DNA of 64,000 nucleotides, from the sequence record OV876907; one strand, 5' to 3'. The stretch's first letter is position 1. Every line of letters begins with the position of its first letter. The translations under genes and the position numbers were made by a program. This document shows positions 10,171 to 17,508 of this stretch, piece by piece. The DNA is from Escherichia phage UGJNEcP3. Under the pieces are notes generated by a model. It searched no databases. It was given only the letters and a program-made list of their open reading frames with translations, and was not told where the DNA came from.

Positions 10171-12480
<2,310 letters not shown>

Positions 12481-12509: not shown

Positions 12510-14492
12510 ATGGCTTTATTATCACCGGGCATTGAGCTCAAAGAAACGTCCGTACAGAGTACTGTCGTTCGTAACGCAACGGGTCGTGCAGCGCTGGTTG
12601 GTAAATTCCAGTGGGGCCCTGCTTTCCAGGTAACTCAGATTACTAATGAAGTTGAACTGGTCGACTTATTTGGAGGTCCTAATAACGAAGTTGCTGATTA
12701 CTTCATGTCGGGTATGAACTTCCTCCAGTATGGTAACGACCTTCGTACTGTTCGTGTTGTTAACCGTGAATTCGCTAAAAACGCGTCTCCGGTAGCAGGT
12801 AACGTCCAAACCACTATTACTACTGCAGGTTCTAACTATGCGGTAGGCGATAAAATTAATATCAAATATAACCAGACTGTTGTTGAATCTGAAGGTCGTG
12901 TAACTTCGGTTGATACCGACGGTAAAATTATGTCGGTGTTTATTCCTACCGGTAAGATTATTTCTTATGCTCGTTCTGTCAACCAATATCCAGACCTTGG
13001 CCCTGCGTGGACGGCCGAAGTAACTTCTGCCTCTTCAGGTGTTTCTGGTACTATTACTGTCGGTAAAATCGTAACCGATTCTGGTATTCTGTTGACTGAA
13101 GCAGAGAACAGTGAAGAAGCTATTACTTCCCTGGAATTCCAAGCATCTCTTAAACAGTTTGCTATGCCGGGCGTAGTTGCTCTTTATCCTGGTGAAATTG
13201 GCAGCACCTTAGAAGTTGAAATTGTTTCTAAAGCAGCTTATGATGCCGGTTCTACTAAAATGTTGGATATTTATCCAAATGGTGGTTCCCGTGCTTCTAT
13301 TGCCAAGGCAGTATTTAACTACGGCCCACAAACAGATGACCAATATGCAATTATTGTTCGTCGTGACGGTGCTATCGTAGAATCCGTCGTACTTTCTACC
13401 AAAGAAGGTGAAAAAGACGTTTATGGTAATAACATTTATCTCGATGACTATTTCGCTAAAGGCACTTCCAACTATATTTTTGCTACCTCTTTGAATTGGC
13501 CTAAAGGCTTCAGTGGTATCATTAATCTGATGGGCGGTGTTTCTGCTAACGATAAAGTTACTGCAGGTGATTTGATGCAGGGTTGGGATTTGTTTGCCGA
13601 TCGTGAAGCACTCCATATTAACCTTTTGATTGCCGGTGCTGTTGCCGGTGAAGGTGATGAAGTTGCTTCTACCGTCCAGAAACACGTGGTGAGCATCGCT
13701 GATGAACGTCAGGATTGCTTGGCATTTATTTCTCCTCCTAAAGGACTGTTGGTTAACGTTCCGTTGACTCGTGCAGTAGATAATCTTATCGACTGGCGTA
13801 CCGGTGCAGGTACTTTCGATGCCAACAACATGAACATTAGCACCACTTATGCTGCTATTGATGGTAACTATAAATATCAGTATGACAAATATAATGACGT
13901 AAACCGTTGGGTGCCTCTGGCCGCTGATATGGCTGGTTTGTGTGCACGTACTGATGATGTTTCTCAGCCTTGGATGTCTCCGGCGGGTTATAACCGTGGC
14001 CAGATTCTTAACGTTCTGAAATTGGCAATTGAACCACGTCAAGCTCAACGTGACCGCATGTACCAAGAAGCTATTAACCCAGTTGTTGGTTTTGCTGGTG
14101 GCGATGGTTTCGTATTGTTTGGTGATAAGACTGCAACTAAAGTTCCATCTCCGATGGACCACATTAACGTTCGCCGTCTGTTCAACATGCTTAAGAAAAA
14201 TATCGGTGATGCCTCTAAATATAAACTGTTTGAATTGAACGACAGCTTCACTCGTTCAAGCTTCCGTATGGAAGTTTCTCAGTACTTAGATGGTATTAAG
14301 GCACTTGGTGGGATTTATGAAGGACGTGTGGTTTGTGATACTACGGTGAACACCCCTGCGGTTATCGACCGTAACGAGTTTATTGCTAATATATACATCA
14401 AACCGGCGAGATCGATAAATTATATCACTCTTAATTTCGTGGCTACTTCTACCGGTGCAGATTTTGACGAGTTGATTGGACCACTAGTTTAA
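12510..14492 (+). CDS. 18: tail sheath protein gp18
   Basis: ORF track; TATAAATA at 12473-12480 upstream; size and position as T4 gene 18. Confidence 0.92.
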   Translation: MALLSPGIELKETSVQSTVVRNATGRAALVGKFQWGPAFQVTQITNEVELVDLFGGPNNEVADYFMSGMNFLQYGNDLRTVRVVNREFAKNASPVAGNVQTTITTAGSNYAVGDKINIKYNQTVVESEGRVTSVDTDGKIMSVFIPTGKIISYARSVNQYPDLGPAWTAEVTSASSGVSGTITVGKIVTDSGILLTEAENSEEAITSLEFQASLKQFAMPGVVALYPGEIGSTLEVEIVSKAAYDAGSTKMLDIYPNGGSRASIAKAVFNYGPQTDDQYAIIVRRDGAIVESVVLSTKEGEKDVYGNNIYLDDYFAKGTSNYIFATSLNWPKGFSGIINLMGGVSANDKVTAGDLMQGWDLFADREALHINLLIAGAVAGEGDEVASTVQKHVVSIADERQDCLAFISPPKGLLVNVPLTRAVDNLIDWRTGAGTFDANNMNISTTYAAIDGNYKYQYDKYNDVNRWVPLAADMAGLCARTDDVSQPWMSPAGYNRGQILNVLKLAIEPRQAQRDRMYQEAINPVVGFAGGDGFVLFGDKTATKVPSPMDHINVRRLFNMLKKNIGDASKYKLFELNDSFTRSSFRMEVSQYLDGIKALGGIYEGRVVCDTTVNTPAVIDRNEFIANIYIKPARSINYITLNFVATSTGADFDELIGPLV

Positions 14493-14522
14493 GTTTACTT
14501 GCTCTAAGCTTTATGGTATAAT
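14493..14522 (+). promoter_or_regulatory. early-type promoter GTTTACT-N17-TATAAT driving the HNH gene
   Basis: GTTTAC right after gp18 stop, 17-nt spacer, perfect TATAAT; hairpin and AAGGA RBS follow. Confidence 0.55.
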
Positions 14523-14544
14523 GCGCGTATACACAATACGCGCA
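14522..14544 (+). promoter_or_regulatory. stem-loop in the HNH gene leader
   Basis: Perfect 9-bp stem TGCGCGTAT / ATACGCGCA with ACACA loop, between promoter -10 and RBS. Confidence 0.45.
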
Positions 14545-14556
14545 AGGATTTCTAAA

Positions 14557-15177
14557 GTGATTATTACTAAATTTGTTGATGTAAAAATAAATACTAACAA
14601 TTACAGTTATTTCTTAGACTTAGGGTATGAGTTGGAACCTCTAGGAGCACCGAAGCATGGGCATAAGTGCCAAACTATTCGAGCAAAAGTTTCTGATTTA
14701 AAGGATGGTTCTAATAAAGAAGTTCAATGTATCTGCGATAAATGTGGCACAGAATTCAAACAAAGGATTGCTAGAAATACCGATGTATGTTATCCTTGTA
14801 GGCGTCATGAAGCTCTTATAGGTAACACCCACGGTAAAGCTAATAAAGGTAAAACTCTACCTCATATGCAAGGTGAAAACCATCCAAGATGGAACCCTAA
14901 TAAATCTGAATACTTTGCTTATGCAGCAAAGGTCAGAGCTGTTACTTATGCTTGTAAAGACGAGTGGATGGCTTGGGAAAATGCCGATAAAATAGGGCTA
15001 TGTGGAGTTGAAGGTGCTTACCAATTAGACCATAAGGTTTCAGTAGCTTATGGGTTCTATAACCATATCCCGGCAGAGATAATTGGACAATTATCAAATT
15101 TAGAAATAATCACTTGGGAATCCAATAGAGCTAAAAGTAAGTCTAGTTCAATAGACTTATGGGACTTACTATCCTAA
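14557..15177 (+). CDS. free-standing HNH endonuclease (putative homing endonuclease)
   Basis: Zn-ribbon CxxC...CxxC then HNH-like LDHKVS...NL...NRAK; no T4 gene at this position; GTG 14557 follows AAGGA; ATG 14521 lies inside a hairpin so start is uncertain. Confidence 0.65.
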   Translation: MIITKFVDVKINTNNYSYFLDLGYELEPLGAPKHGHKCQTIRAKVSDLKDGSNKEVQCICDKCGTEFKQRIARNTDVCYPCRRHEALIGNTHGKANKGKTLPHMQGENHPRWNPNKSEYFAYAAKVRAVTYACKDEWMAWENADKIGLCGVEGAYQLDHKVSVAYGFYNHIPAEIIGQLSNLEIITWESNRAKSKSSSIDLWDLLS

Positions 15178-15324
15178 ATAAATTATATTATTAGTATAAT
15201 CTATTATCCCAGGCTGTAATATAAAGAACCTAAAACCATTATACCATGTGTTTGGTTACAGCGTACATCACGTAGAATTGCGCCTGGGATTGATTATTCT
15301 CTTGGAATATGATTTATCAACTGT

Positions 15325-15332
15325 TATAAATA
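15325..15332 (+). promoter_or_regulatory. T4-type late promoter TATAAATA (gene 19)
   Basis: Exact TATAAATA upstream of gp19; an 8-bp hairpin (15346-15366) lies between it and the RBS. Confidence 0.55.
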
Positions 15333-15384
15333 AATTAATCAGAACGTTCCTGGTGTGTCCAGGAACTGACTTAAGAGGCATCCC

Positions 15385-15876
15385 ATGGAGTTGACAGATA
15401 TCACTCGTGCGTTTGAGTCAGGTGACTTTGCACGCCCTAACCTTTTCGAAGTGGAAATTCCATTTCTCGGTAAAAACTTTAGCTTTAAATGTAAAGCAGC
15501 ACCTATGCCAGCAGGCATTGTAGAAAAAGTACCGGTTGGCTACATGAACCGTAAAATTAACGTAGCTGGTGACCGTACGTTTGATGATTGGACCATTACC
15601 ATTTATAACGATGATGCTCATGACACCCGTCAGGCAATTGTTGATTGGCAGAATCTCTGTCATGGTATGACCAATGAAATCACCGGTGCAGCACCTGCAG
15701 AATATAAGAAACAAGCAGTAGTTCGCCAGTTCCATCGTGACGGCAAGACTGTGACCAAAGAAGTTACAATTTACGGCTTATGGCCTACTAACGTTGGTGA
15801 AGTCCAGATGGATTGGGACAGCAACAACGAGGTAGAAACTTTCGAATCTACGTTCGCTATCGATTGGTGGGAATGA
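15385..15876 (+). CDS. 19: tail tube protein gp19
   Basis: ORF track; AAGAGG RBS; TATAAATA at 15325-15332; size and position as T4 gene 19. Confidence 0.9.
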   Translation: MELTDITRAFESGDFARPNLFEVEIPFLGKNFSFKCKAAPMPAGIVEKVPVGYMNRKINVAGDRTFDDWTITIYNDDAHDTRQAIVDWQNLCHGMTNEITGAAPAEYKKQAVVRQFHRDGKTVTKEVTIYGLWPTNVGEVQMDWDSNNEVETFESTFAIDWWE

Positions 15877-15877
15877 G

Positions 15878-15885
15878 TATAAATA
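15878..15885 (+). promoter_or_regulatory. T4-type late promoter TATAAATA (gene 20)
   Basis: Exact TATAAATA directly after gp19 stop. Confidence 0.55.
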
Positions 15886-15894
15886 GAATTATCA

Positions 15895-15910
15895 AGGAGC
15901 TTCGGCTCCT
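15895..15910 (+). terminator. UUCG hairpin between gene 19 and gene 20 (no clear U-tract)
   Basis: AGGAGC-TTCG-GCTCCT; lies downstream of the gene 20 late promoter box, so may be a leader structure. Confidence 0.35.
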
Positions 15911-15933
15911 TATCCCATTCATCGGAGACTCTA

Positions 15934-17508
15934 ATGGCAAACTTTAATACAATATTAAGTTTTCTTAAGCCATGGGCTAATGAAGACGAAAAAGAATATA
16001 AACAACAAATTAATAACAATTTAGAGTCTGTCACCGCACCTAAGCTTGATGATGGCGCTCGCGAAATTGAGACACAAGAGCAAAATATTCCTTATAATGC
16101 TCTTATGCAACAGATGTTTGGTAGTAATGAGCCTGAAGTTAAAAATACCAGGGAACTTATTGATACCTACCGTAATTTAATGAACAACTATGAAGTCGAC
16201 AACGCCGTACAGGAAATTGTGTCTGACGCTATTGTCTATGAGGATGATAAAGAAGTAGTTGCATTGAATTTAGACGGGACAGAATTTAGTCAAGCAATTA
16301 AAGATAAAATCTTGGCCGAATTCAGTGAAGTTTTAAACCTTTTAAATTTCCAACGTAAAGGCACTGACCATTTCCAACGATGGTATGTTGACTCAAGAAT
16401 TTTCTTTCATAAAATTATAAACCCTAAAAAAATGAAAGACGGCGTACAAGAGCTTCGTCGCTTAGACCCACGCCAAGTCCAATATATTCGTGAAATCGTT
16501 ACACGTATGGAAGATGGCGTTAAAGTTGTAGACGGATATCGCGAGTTTTTCGTTTATGATACAGGCCATGAAAGTTATTGCGCTGATGGACGCATTTATT
16601 CAGCCGGGACTAAAGTTAAAATTCCTCGTGCTGCAGTGGTTTATGCACATTCTGGATTATTGGATTGTTGTGGTAAAAACATCATTGGCTATTTGCAACG
16701 TGCTATTAAGCCTGCAAACCAGCTTAAATTGATGGAAGACGCAATGGTCATTTACCGTATTACCCGTGCTCCCGACCGTCGTGTGTTTTATATCGATACC
16801 GGTAATATGCCTTCACGTAAGGCCGCAGCACAAATGCAACATATCATGAACACGATGAAAAACCGTGTGGTGTATGATGCTTCGACAGGTAAAATTAAAA
16901 ACCAACAACACAATATGTCCATGACTGAAGACTATTGGTTGCAACGTCGTGACGGTAAAGCGGTAACAGAAGTTGATACAATGCCAGGTGCTACTGGTAT
17001 GAGTGATATGGATGACGTTCTTTATTTCCGCACAGCACTTTATCGTGCGCTGCGTGTTCCTGAATCACGTATCCCTAGCGAGTCTAATTCCGGTGTTATG
17101 TTTGATGCCGGTACAGCTATAACTCGTGACGAATTAAAATTCTCTAAATGGATTCGTCAACTACAAAACAAATTTGAAGAAATTTTCCTAGACCCGTTAA
17201 AAACAAACCTCATTCTTAAAAAGATTATTACAGAAGATGAGTGGGAAAAGGAAATAAATAATATTAAAGTTACGTTTAACCGTGATAGCTATTTCAGTGA
17301 AATGAAAGATGCTGAAATCATGGAACGCAGAATCAATATGCTAACGATGGCTGAACCATTTATTGGTAAGTACATTTCACATCAAACGGCTATGAAAGAT
17401 TTCCTCCAAATGACTGACGAAGAAATTAATCAAGAAGCTAAGCAAATTGAAGAAGAGTCTAAAGAGGCTCGTTTCCAAAACCCAGATGAAGAAGAAGAGG
17501 ATTTCTAA
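15934..17508 (+). CDS. 20: portal vertex protein gp20
   Basis: ORF track; TATAAATA at 15878-15885; size and position as T4 gene 20. Confidence 0.92.

What the first reader, a model, noticed from the sequence alone, without database searches (positions are those of the whole stretch)
14493..15177. Self-contained HNH endonuclease module inserted between tail sheath and tail tube genes
T4 has no gene between 18 and 19. Here a roughly 200-aa ORF with a zinc-ribbon and an HNH-like motif (LDHKVS...NL...NRAK) sits there. It has its own early-type promoter (GTTTACT-N17-TATAAT) directly after the gene 18 stop, then a perfect 9-bp hairpin and an AAGGA RBS. A likely start is GTG 14557, since ATG 14521 lies inside the hairpin. 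This looks like a free-standing homing endonuclease gene placed inside a late operon.
Basis: partly seen in the sequence, partly recalled or inferred. Interest (0 to 1): 0.55.

Follow-up and report, generated by a model that had tools for sequence, protein, structure and literature searches.

The report
Mobile nuclease gene between tail genes
A 707-bp selfish cassette encoding an HNH-type homing nuclease sits right after the tail-sheath gene of this T4-like phage, which is ordinary for such phages, except that its mRNA start site is locked by pairing with a segment about 540 bases downstream.

Summary
The window is a JS98-like Dhakavirus, identical over the query to phage UGJNEcP4. A 707-bp insert (14493-15199) follows the gene 18 stop codon. 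T4, JS98, IME08 and WG01 lack it.

Homologues occur in 247 of about 1599 T4-like phage records. All 17 loci inspected lie between genes 18 and 19. PSD9 differs from its insert-free relative WG01 by 29 almost entirely silent changes in the last 118 nt of gene 18, against 3 in 2300 nt downstream. This looks like a co-conversion tract. Free-standing homing endonuclease is the best reading.

One result is new. A roughly 33-bp helix (-35 kcal/mol) pairs the ribosome-binding site, GTG and first eight codons (14546-14580) with codons 178-189 (15090-15123). It is present in 13 of 13 enterobacterial-type alleles and shows compensatory changes and suppressed synonymous variation. It probably throttles translation.

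Nuclease activity, target site, promoter class and the function of the helix are all untested.

The parts
14375..14492 (+). 3' end of tail-sheath gene 18. This is the recombination (co-conversion) tract that travels with the insert.
   Evidence: PSD9 (insert+) differs from WG01 (insert-, same species) at 29 positions within 14375-14489, with only 1 amino-acid change. Most of the rest of gene 18 shows 0-1 differences per 100 nt. UP19 differs from JS98 at 20 positions within 14408-14489 with no amino-acid change.
14493..15199 (+). The 707-bp insert. It is absent from IME08, JS98, WG01 and ABTNLsp5. It is bounded by an imperfect 9-nt direct repeat, CTAGTTTAA at 14484-14492 and TTAGTATAA at 15191-15199.
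   Evidence: Megablast gives 63% query coverage in two pieces for insert-free relatives, with matched spans of 1901 and 1194 nt. Junctions were read directly. GC content is 36.0%, against 43.4% for gene 18 and 44.1% for gene 19.
14493..14522 (+). Sigma-70-type promoter-like site: GTTTAC (14493-14498), TGg (14514-16) and TATAAT (14517-14522).
   Evidence: The scan gives 10 of 12 matches plus TGn. The same arrangement (G/C)TTTAC-N18-TATAAT directly follows the gene 18 stop in EnC07, DCP80 and DK-13. phi1_146043 has TTGTAC...TACAAT in the same position. It is absent in S16, Thanatos-2 and PST. Activity and class are untested.
14522..14544 (+). Perfect 9-bp hairpin with a 5-nt loop, between the -10 element and the ribosome-binding site.
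   Evidence: Seen in folding and in the repeat search. A hairpin at the same position but with a different sequence is present in every lineage read: GCACGTAC/GTACGTGC, TTGCACATA/TATGTGCAA, GGGCC/GGCCC and GGGGC/GCCCC.
14544..14548 (+). Shine-Dalgarno sequence AAGGA, 8 nt upstream of the GTG.
   Evidence: Read directly. It is conserved in homologous loci.
14557..15177 (+). Homing-endonuclease ORF of 206 aa, from the GTG start to TAA.
14719..14817 (+). Zinc ribbon of treble-clef type, residues 55-87, with C60, C63, C78 and C81.
   Evidence: The four cysteines are nearly invariant. DUF4379 matches weakly in 17 of 42 members. The AlphaFold model shows strands 55-59 and 66-70 and helix 79-87.
14902..15174 (+). 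C-terminal nuclease domain, residues 116-206. The beta-beta-alpha core is residues 155-193 (15019-15135), with D158-H159 (15028-15033), N181 (15097-15099) and N190 (15124-15126).
14546..14580 (+). 5' arm of the long-distance helix: GGA of the Shine-Dalgarno sequence, the spacer, the GTG and the first 8 codons.
   Evidence: The MFE structure of the whole mRNA contains this helix in three transcript contexts. Duplex energy is -34.9 kcal/mol and mean pair probability is 0.84.
15090..15123 (+). 3' arm of the long-distance helix: codons 178-189 (QLSNLEIITWES), which include the N181 strand of the nuclease motif.
15200..15384 (+). Native 18-19 intergenic region, retained downstream of the insert. 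It contains TATAAATA (15325-15332), read as the late promoter for gene 19.
   Evidence: The region is almost invariant in Dhakaviruses with and without the insert. TATAAATA was read directly. Its identification as a late promoter is from my own knowledge of the T4 late-promoter consensus.

Best explanation
Window 14493-15199 is a mobile cassette that landed exactly behind the stop codon of tail-sheath gene 18 of a JS98-like phage. It leaves gp18 unchanged and keeps the native gene 19 leader and late promoter downstream.

The cassette encodes a 206-aa two-module enzyme. The N-terminal part is a small beta/alpha unit plus a four-cysteine zinc ribbon, followed by a Gly/Lys/Asn-rich linker. I infer that this part reads the DNA site. 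The C-terminal part is a beta-beta-alpha-metal (HNH-type) nuclease with the D-H...N...N variant of the motif. I infer that it nicks or cuts.

The inferred mechanism is as follows. In a cell co-infected with a related phage that lacks the cassette, the enzyme breaks that phage's DNA at or near the 18/19 junction. Recombinational repair then copies the cassette, together with about 80-120 nt of the donor's gene 18 end, into the recipient. This is intronless homing.

Expression looks tightly limited. The cassette has a sigma-70-type promoter of its own, whose predicted start point falls inside a 9-bp hairpin. It also has a roughly 33-bp long-distance helix that pairs the ribosome-binding site, the GTG and the first eight codons with codons 178-189. 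I infer that initiation is possible mainly on nascent RNA, before the downstream arm is made, or while ribosomes keep that arm unwound.

What is shown: the anatomy, the conservation, the predicted fold, the presence/absence pattern, the flanking recombination tracts, and the covariation of the helix. What is inferred: nuclease activity, the target site, the direction of transfer, the promoter class, and the regulatory effect of the helix.
For: Insertion polymorphism.
- The insert is present in UGJNEcP4, PSD9 and QL01, with a chimeric allele in UP19. It is absent in IME08, JS98, JS10, WG01 and others.
- A second, independent junction exists in T4's own genus. In PST the cassette replaces 9 nt directly after the gene 18 stop, and the downstream sequence is identical to T4.
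- The family is in 247 records against 1599 with gp19. All 17 loci inspected lie between genes 18 and 19.

Flanking recombination tracts.
- PSD9 and WG01 differ at 29 sites in 14375-14489 with 1 amino-acid change. Downstream they differ at 3 sites in 2300 nt.
- UP19 and JS98 differ at 20 sites in 14408-14489.

Nuclease assignment.
- D158, H159, N181 and N190 are invariant.
- The predicted topology is strand 155-159, strand 182-186, helix 187-193.
- hhalign places H159 on Cas9 H840 and on ColE9 H103.
- A relative with the same C-terminal domain carries NUMOD3.

Modularity.
- UP19 and the window are 28% identical over residues 13-102 but 89% over residues 136-206.

Long-distance helix.
- Searches show it in 13 of 13 alleles, with pair probability 0.72-1.00.
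- Covariation: 7 cells with changes on both sides, against 1.7+-1.1 in shuffles (0 of 500). 86.5% of cells are paired, against at most 47% when the partner is slid.
- Identical-codon use is 79% and 87% in the two arms against 49.5% elsewhere.

Precedent.
- RNA structures that sequester the ribosome-binding site of T4 homing endonucleases, and hairpins just upstream of it, are described in PMC2988022.
Against: - No curated HNH profile matches the protein. HNH_4 matches only 2 of 42 members, at about E 1e-3.
- The flanking tract shows linkage between insert and haplotype, not the direction of transfer. IME08, which lacks the insert, carries almost the same gene 18 end.
- No cleavage site can be named.
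- The count of promoter-like sites in the region is at chance level.
- The covariation rests on about three independent events among related sequences.
- Distant alleles (vB_EcoM_005, Acj61, Melin, IMG/VR contigs) lack the helix.
Confidence: 0.75

Rival explanations
1. It is a resident accessory nuclease rather than a homing element. On this reading it is an early-expressed enzyme that attacks competitor-phage or host DNA, or counters a defence system. It would be kept at this locus and spread by ordinary recombination, not by self-promoted gene conversion.
For: A sigma-70-type promoter would allow expression before the late genes. By contrast, T4's endonuclease-specific promoters are middle or late, never early (PMC2988022). 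The family is old and diverse at this locus, with 30-100% identity. The flanking tracts do not show direction.
Against: The site-specific, sporadic occupancy directly after the gene 18 stop in several genera, together with mosaic boundaries that abut the insert, is the pattern expected of homing. PADLOC gives no hit. The cassette sits among late structural genes. Marker exclusion is itself a consequence of homing endonucleases (PMC2988022), so the two readings overlap.
Confidence: 0.12
2. It is a terminase-associated HNH protein that assists DNA packaging, as in HK97-like cos phages. On this reading its place in the terminase-sheath-tube-portal block is functional.
For: The two best structural matches are 4h9d (Gme HNH) and 5h0o (phage GVE2 HNH). 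From my own knowledge these small HNH proteins are linked to phage terminases. The gene lies 2 kb from the gp17 terminase gene and 0.8 kb from the gp20 portal gene.
Against: It is absent from T4, JS98, IME08 and about 85% of T4-like records, so it cannot be required for packaging. It is not adjacent to the terminase genes. The T4 record annotates gp17 itself as having nuclease activity.
Confidence: 0.03
3. The protein is a catalytically dead DNA-binding relic, or a regulator, and the cassette is a decaying remnant of a former mobile element.
For: There is no curated HNH profile hit. The last motif position is Asn rather than His. Many phage homing endonuclease genes are defective, for example T4 mobA and I-TevIII.
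Against: The ORF is intact in all alleles examined. The D-H, N and N positions are invariant across 42 diverged members and across a 4616-cluster domain family. From my own knowledge the H-N-N variant is active in Cas9. Recent transfer is indicated by 98.5-100% identical alleles in different Dhakavirus species.
Confidence: 0.05
4. The complementarity between 14546-14580 and 15090-15123 is maintained at the DNA level, for example by templated correction within a quasi-palindrome or as a recombination site. On this reading it has no role in translation.
For: DCP80 differs from DK-13 by three adjacent changes on each arm that stay perfectly complementary. A templated event could produce these at once.
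Against: The arms are about 510 nt apart. The helix covers exactly the ribosome-binding site and start codon. It dominates the predicted mRNA ensemble in 13 of 13 alleles. Synonymous sites in both arms are constrained. Separate single-step and double changes also keep the pairing.
Confidence: 0.15

Closest known systems
Free-standing HNH homing endonuclease genes of T-even phages (T4 mobA-mobE; MobE and MobA characterised)
   Same: Each is an intergenic cassette between conserved phage genes, in the same orientation as its neighbours. Each is sporadic among close relatives and is associated with co-conversion of flanking sequence. All use HNH-type chemistry, and expression is damped by RNA structure (PMC2988022).
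   Different: There is no detectable sequence relationship: hhalign of the family against T4 MobE gives 0.08% probability. MobE has an N-terminal Pfam HNH domain (residues 21-44), and the review describes mob genes as an HNH domain followed by a C-terminal DNA-binding region. Here the order is reversed, with the zinc ribbon first and the nuclease last. The 18/19 site is not used by any T4 element. This cassette has a sigma-70-type promoter, whereas T4's endonuclease-specific promoters are middle or late.
I-TevIII (phage RB3 nrdB intron HNH endonuclease with zinc fingers) and I-TevI (modular catalytic domain, linker, zinc finger, DNA-binding domain)
   Same: The design is modular: a small nuclease domain is joined to zinc-containing DNA-binding modules (PMC2988022). 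The domain swap seen in UP19 fits this beads-on-a-string idea.
   Different: Those enzymes are intron-encoded. No sequence similarity was tested or found here. I-TevI is a GIY-YIG enzyme.
Ribosome-binding-site hairpins of I-TevI, I-TevII, I-TevIII, segB and Aeh1 mobE, and the seg43(25) hairpin just upstream of the ribosome-binding site
   Same: RNA structure limits translation of a phage homing endonuclease. A promoter is placed so that its transcripts lack part of the inhibitory structure. The 9-bp hairpin here abuts the ribosome-binding site without covering it, as described for seg43(25).
   Different: The known cases are local hairpins. Here the main sequestering element is a helix between the initiation region and coding sequence about 540 nt downstream. 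I found no description of such an arrangement for a homing endonuclease in the searchable library.
Long-distance fold-back control of toxic or dosage-limited genes: hok mRNA 5'-3' pairing and the MS2 maturation-gene long-distance interaction (from my own knowledge, not tested here)
   Same: A distant complementary segment closes the initiation region, so that translation depends on the kinetics of folding or on processing.
   Different: These are unrelated systems. Here the partner lies inside the same ORF, in the codons for the catalytic motif. No processing step is known.
Small phage and prophage HNH endonucleases 4h9d (Geobacter Gme HNH) and 5h0o (phage GVE2 HNH); Cas9-type HNH domains (Pfam HNH_4)
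   Same: These are the best structural matches. The D-H...N...N spacing resembles Cas9, with 9 residues between the two Asn. HNH_4 is the only HNH profile that touches any family member.

Membership tests
HNH / beta-beta-alpha-metal nuclease superfamily | A beta-hairpin followed by a helix, forming the metal site | tested here: met
HNH / beta-beta-alpha-metal nuclease superfamily | A conserved general-base His at the end of strand 1 (often preceded by Asp), a structural Asn, and a His or Asn metal ligand in the helix | tested here: met
   D158-H159, N181 and N190 are invariant in 42 members and in the 27-sequence domain alignment. hhalign aligns H159 with Cas9 H840 and ColE9 H103.
HNH / beta-beta-alpha-metal nuclease superfamily | A significant match to a curated HNH sequence profile (Pfam PF01844, PF13395 and others) | tested here: not met
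   There is no HNH hit for the window protein at E<=1. HNH_4 matches only 2 of 42 members, with best E 9.5e-4 and no curated cut-off shown. PHROG 5104 is 'unknown function'.
HNH / beta-beta-alpha-metal nuclease superfamily | Divalent-metal-dependent DNA nicking or cleavage | not testable with these tools
   This needs an enzyme assay.
Free-standing homing endonuclease genes of T4-like phages (functional class) | An intergenic cassette between conserved genes, present or absent among close relatives at one precise site | tested here: met
   Searches (Dhakavirus; T4 versus PST), and 11 with 27 (247 of about 1599 records).
Free-standing homing endonuclease genes of T4-like phages (functional class) | Co-conversion of flanking sequence with the element | tested here: met
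   Mosaic tracts end at the insert in two genetic backgrounds: PSD9 versus WG01 and UP19 versus JS98. The direction of transfer is not shown.
Free-standing homing endonuclease genes of T4-like phages (functional class) | Site-specific cleavage of the element-free allele and preferential inheritance in mixed infection | not testable with these tools
   This needs a cleavage assay and phage crosses.
T4 Mob family (MobA-E) | An N-terminal HNH domain recognised by Pfam, followed by a C-terminal DNA-binding region, with sequence similarity to Mob proteins | tested here: not met
   MobE has Pfam HNH at residues 21-44. hhalign of A2 against MobE gives 0.08% probability. The domain order here is reversed. 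Only MobE was compared.
Terminase-associated HNH proteins (HK97 gp74 type) | Encoded next to the terminase genes and required for packaging across the phage group | tested here: not met
   The gene lies between the sheath and tube genes. It is absent from most T4-like phages, including T4. The structural resemblance to 4h9d and 5h0o is the only link.
RNA structures that sequester the initiation region of phage homing-endonuclease mRNAs | A stable, conserved pairing that covers the ribosome-binding site and/or start codon | tested here: met
   14546-14580 pairs with 15090-15123 at -34.9 kcal/mol in the MFE of the whole mRNA. Pair probability is 0.72-1.00 in 13 of 13 alleles. Covariation and slid-partner controls support it, as does synonymous-site constraint. 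The effect on translation was not tested.

The most novel reading that the evidence does not exclude
The cassette belongs to a large, uncurated clade of D-H...N...N nucleases. The C-terminal domain matches 4616 cluster representatives, and no Pfam model covers it. One lineage of this clade has specialised in the gene 18/19 junction across the T4-like phage family (Straboviridae). That lineage appears to re-target by swapping its N-terminal zinc-ribbon module.

Its enterobacterial branch has also evolved a fold-back translational lock. A roughly 540-nt long-distance helix joins the initiation region to the codons of its own catalytic motif. This would restrict synthesis of the nuclease to a short co-transcriptional burst. 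Such a control principle is known for hok-type toxins and RNA-phage genes but has not been described for homing endonucleases.
Probability: 0.4. Interest if true: 0.6.

Novelty: new variant of a known kind. Interest (0 to 1): 0.45.

Why it matters
Homing endonuclease genes are the main known agents of localised gene conversion and marker exclusion among T4-like phages. Phages of the JS98 group were reported to have none (Table 5 of PMC2993671). This locus shows a recent invasion of a therapy-relevant phage group, inside the structural module.

It also defines a widespread nuclease family that annotation pipelines mostly call 'hypothetical'. It offers natural pairs for direct homing experiments, PSD9 with WG01 and PST with T4.

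The conserved long-distance helix would be a compact, testable example of how a selfish nuclease keeps its dose low inside a highly expressed late operon. It could also explain why these genes keep a GTG start and unusual codon conservation.

If the enzyme proves site-specific, the swappable N-terminal module is of interest for engineering phage genomes.

Tried and rejected
- Curated profile searches gave no usable family. Pfam, NCBIfam and PADLOC returned nothing, and PHROGs returned only PHROG 5104, 'unknown function'.
- Sequence searches of the PDB returned only zinc-ribbon proteins. With the C-terminal profile they returned leucine-rich-repeat proteins that match 'IGQLSNLEIITWESNR'. I treat these as spurious because the scores come from many repeats.
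- Foldseek against the PDB was non-significant. Cas9 HNH domains ranked 3-5 at E about 1.
- hhalign against single HNH sequences aligned the motif correctly but with low probability.
- hhalign against T4 MobE found nothing.
- Rfam found no known RNA family in 14300-15500.
- A MotA-box reading of the promoter was considered. CTTGCTCTA lies 10 bp from the -10 element, outside the 12+-1 bp rule given in PMC2988021. The promoter class is left open.
- The upstream ATG 14521 was rejected as the start. It overlaps the -10 element and the hairpin, has no ribosome-binding site, and its 12-residue extension is not conserved.
- The 'conserved structural-module component' reading was rejected on the distribution.
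- Literature searches for a description of this gene ('19.1', 'between tail sheath and tail tube') or of long-range control of a homing endonuclease found nothing relevant. Subscription journals are not covered.
Full report
**What is there.**
The window matches Escherichia phage UGJNEcP4 at 100% over the 1901-bp query. It belongs to the JS98-like genus Dhakavirus. The local gene order is:
- terminase gp17, 10642-12477;
- tail sheath gp18, 12510-14492;
- the ORF in question;
- tail tube gp19, 15385-15876;
- portal gp20, 15934-17508.

- GTTTAC at 14493-14498, directly after the TAA of gene 18;
- TGg-TATAAT at 14514-14522;
- a perfect 9-bp hairpin at 14522-14544;
- AAGGA at 14544-14548;
- GTG at 14557;
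- the stop codon at 15175-15177.

GTG 14557 is the start. PHROG 5104 aligns from that residue. Two GenBank records annotate the 621-bp CDS. All homologues begin (M/V)II(T/S)K. T4 itself has a 116-bp gene-free interval between genes 18 and 19.

**It is an insertion.**
Most Dhakavirus records match the query in two pieces and lack 707 bp. These include IME08, JS98, JS10, WG01 and MX01. Only UGJNEcP4, PSD9 and QL01 carry the same insert. UP19 carries a chimeric version.

The junctions read as follows:
- insert-free genomes: ...GGACCTTTAGTATAA|TCTATTATCCCAGGC;
- the window: ...GGACCACTAGTTTAA|GTTTAC...[insert]...ATTATTAGTATAA|TCTATTATCCCAGGC.

The cassette therefore sits exactly behind the gene 18 stop codon. 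It is flanked by an imperfect 9-nt repeat, and the gp18 protein is unchanged.

The same is true in T4's own genus. In Yersinia phage PST a 43%-identical allele replaces 9 nt immediately after the gene 18 stop. The downstream leader is identical to T4's.

The insert has 36% GC, against 43-44% for genes 18 and 19.

**Distribution.**
Homologues with 30-100% identity occur in 247 phage records. gp19 homologues occur in 1599 records. All 17 loci I opened have the gene between genes 18 and 19. They come from Karamvirus, Gaprivervirus, Gelderlandvirus, Tequatrovirus, Hadassahvirus, Dhakavirus and from Klebsiella, Serratia, Erwinia, Citrobacter and Shewanella phages with no genus given.

Within Dhakavirus there are at least three very different alleles:
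- the window type;
- the UP19 chimera;
- a 35% allele in vB_EcoM_005, inserted at the other end of the intergenic region, just before gene 19.

A review of T4-related genomes listed JS98 and JS10 as having no homing endonuclease genes (PMC2993671). This rules out a conserved structural component.

**Flanking tracts.**
PSD9 and WG01 are assigned to the same species.
- In gene 18 they are identical over the first 800 nt.
- They differ in a central variable patch.
- They then differ at 29 positions within 14375-14489, directly abutting the insert, with a single amino-acid change.
- In 2300 nt downstream they differ at 3 positions.

UP19 and JS98 show the same picture, with 20 silent differences within 14408-14489.

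This is what co-conversion during homing leaves behind (PMC2988022). By itself it shows linkage, not direction. IME08, which has no insert, carries nearly the same gene 18 end as the window and differs only at 14375, 14483, 14484 and 14489 in this stretch.

The asymmetry of the tracts suggests that any cleavage site lies in the last roughly 120 nt of gene 18 or across the stop codon. This is inference.

**What the protein is.**
Forty-two family members share invariant W112, D158, H159, N181, L182, N190 and K193. C60, C63, C78 and C81 are nearly invariant.

No curated profile recognises the protein as HNH. The weak signals are DUF4379, a treble-clef zinc finger, in 17 of 42 members, and HNH_4 in 2 of 42.

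The AlphaFold models are confident: pLDDT 92.2 for the whole protein, and 90.6 with pTM 0.79 for residues 103-206. They place D158-H159 at the end of a strand, N181 before the next strand and N190 in the following helix.

The probabilities were low.

I conclude that the C-terminal domain is a divergent member of the HNH / beta-beta-alpha-metal superfamily of the H-N-N type. The fold and motif features are met and the curated-profile feature is not.

The domain family is large, with 4616 cluster representatives at E<=1e-3. Some relatives join it to NUMOD3 modules, a hallmark of homing endonucleases, or to DUF7487.

It is not a T4 Mob protein. MobE has its Pfam HNH domain at the N-terminus and shows no profile similarity. 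The domain order here is reversed relative to the description of mob genes.

The UP19 allele is 28% identical to the window protein over residues 13-102 but 89% identical over residues 136-206. This fits a swappable DNA-recognition module joined to a conserved catalytic module.

**Expression signals.**
The promoter-like site scores 10 of 12 with TGn. Its arrangement, directly after the gene 18 stop, recurs in EnC07, phi1_146043, DCP80 and DK-13. It does not recur in S16, Thanatos-2 or PST, which have only a GC-rich tetraloop hairpin there.

T4 early promoters are described as UP/-35/TGn/-10 promoters. MotA boxes lie 12+-1 bp from the -10 element (PMC2988021). Here a MotA-box-like CTTGCTCTA lies 10 bp away. 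Early versus middle class cannot be decided from sequence.

In T4, endonuclease-specific promoters are middle or late, never early (PMC2988022). A true early promoter would therefore be a difference.

A hairpin is present at the same position in every lineage, with a different sequence in each. A start point about 7 nt after the -10 element would fall inside its 5' arm. In that case only read-through transcripts from gene 18 would form the hairpin. This is inference. It parallels the promoter-within-structure logic of I-TevI and the seg43(25) hairpin.

Gene 19 keeps its own TATAAATA at 15325-15332 downstream of the insert.

The repeat search reported a 31-nt inverted repeat between 14550-14580 and 15090-15120.

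- Folding. Folding the whole mRNA in three transcript contexts puts 14546-14580 in one helix with 15090-15123. The first arm is the GGA of the ribosome-binding site, the spacer, the GTG and eight codons. The second arm is codons 178-189, QLSNLEIITWES. The helix has about 33 pairs, and the two arms folded as a duplex give -34.9 kcal/mol.
- Position. In 9 of 10 lineages first examined, the best complement of the start region lies at the same ORF position. Shuffles of the start region gave at most 21 of 31 matches, against 26 observed in the window.
- Prevalence. Thirteen of 13 enterobacterial-type alleles have the helix, with mean pair probability 0.72-1.00 and duplex energies of -19 to -38 kcal/mol. 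The Melin, Acj61 and vB_EcoM_005 alleles lack it, and the distant IMG/VR alleles show no such complementarity.
- Compensatory changes:
  - ATT/GAA becomes ATC/GAG, synonymous on both sides, in phi1_146043, S16 and Thanatos-2.
  - DK-13 ATT-TCT/AGA-AAT becomes DCP80 ATA-GAT/ATC-TAT, three adjacent double changes that alter both peptides.
  - COW86c has an A.A mismatch that a Glu-to-Val codon change in EnC07 turns into a pair.
- Counting on the alignment:
  - 86.5% of cells are paired, against at most 47% when the partner is slid by 1-3 columns.
  - Three pairs and 7 cells have changes on both sides, against 1.7+-1.1 cells in shuffles (0 of 500).
  - The number of independent events is small, about three.
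- Synonymous sites. Pairs of sequences with the same amino acid use the same codon in 79% and 87% of cases in the two arms. The figure is 49.5% in the rest of the ORF, 46% in the catalytic core outside the arm, and 53% in the conserved GENHPRWNPNK stretch.

I read this as selection on RNA pairing that closes the initiation region. The likely effect is that ribosomes can load only before the downstream arm is transcribed, or while that arm is being translated. This would keep the nuclease dose low, especially on abundant late read-through transcripts. There the 9-bp hairpin and the long helix lie one nucleotide apart and leave no single-stranded ribosome-binding site.

The effect on translation is not shown. 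A DNA-level origin of the complementarity remains a minor rival.

Local hairpins that sequester the ribosome-binding site are known for T4 homing endonucleases. I found no report of a long-range version, in a library that does not cover subscription journals.

**Verdict.**
The element is a free-standing HNH-type homing endonuclease cassette of a family that is widespread, uncurated and, as far as I could find, uncharacterised. It uses the gene 18/19 junction of T4-like phages.

As a homing endonuclease it is an ordinary kind of thing for these phages. The reversed architecture, the own sigma-70-type promoter and above all the covarying long-distance lock on its start site make it a new variant worth a modest follow-up.

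Noticed in passing
window 15195-15300: The native 18-19 intergenic region folds into a long stem (ATCCCAGGC at 15206-15214 with GCCTGGGAT at 15282-15290, plus inner helices). The z-score is -3.7 and 0 of 200 shuffles fold as well. It is almost invariant in Dhakaviruses with and without the insert, more conserved than the flanking coding sequence. Its function is unknown and Rfam has no match.
   Followed up: partly
window 15346-15366: An 8-bp hairpin (GTTCCTGG/CCAGGAAC) lies between the TATAAATA at 15325-15332 and the gene 19 ribosome-binding site. It is conserved in all Dhakaviruses aligned. The scan scores it as terminator-like only on the minus strand.
   Followed up: no
L012 4942-5523 (QL01) and L018 2447-3028 (vB_EcoM_005): Some Dhakaviruses carry a second mobile-looking ORF between genes 19 and 20. 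One record annotates it 'HNH endonuclease'. Its sequence and weak Pfam hits (SegE_GIY-YIG, NUMOD3) point to a seg-like GIY-YIG enzyme instead. The window has no insert at that site (15877-15933).
   Followed up: partly
L018 1019-1887 (vB_EcoM_005): A 35%-identical allele of the same family is inserted at the other end of the intergenic region, 3 nt before gene 19. It is preceded by its own hairpin and a TATAAATA late-promoter-like box. It lacks the long-distance helix. This looks like an independent invasion with different expression signals.
   Followed up: partly
L013 3557-4162 (UP19): This is a chimeric allele. The N-terminal half is of another type (28% identity) and the C-terminal 70 residues are nearly identical to the window (89%). 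The published annotation starts the CDS 63 nt too late relative to the conserved GTG.
   Followed up: yes
window 12900-13800 (middle of gene 18): This is a mosaic, hypervariable patch in the tail-sheath gene. It shows 6-25 differences per 100-200 nt even between phages that are otherwise nearly identical (window versus PSD9, PSD9 versus WG01). It is unrelated to the insert.
   Followed up: no
window 15076-15135 (residues 174-193): The peptide IIGQLSNLEIITWESNR mimics one leucine-rich-repeat unit. It draws spurious multi-repeat hits to Leptospira LRR proteins in sequence searches of the PDB. This is a trap for automated annotation.
   Followed up: yes
GenBank MG010123.1 9098-9709 (hit H100): A 32-kb record named Staphylococcus phage SAJK-IND carries a 59%-identical copy of this T4-like-phage gene. 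The record may be misassigned or contaminated.
   Followed up: no
proteins P0244, P0246 and P0247 (relatives of the C-terminal domain): Longer relatives combine the same nuclease domain with Pfam DUF7487, a family of unknown function. This may help to annotate that family as nuclease-associated.
   Followed up: no
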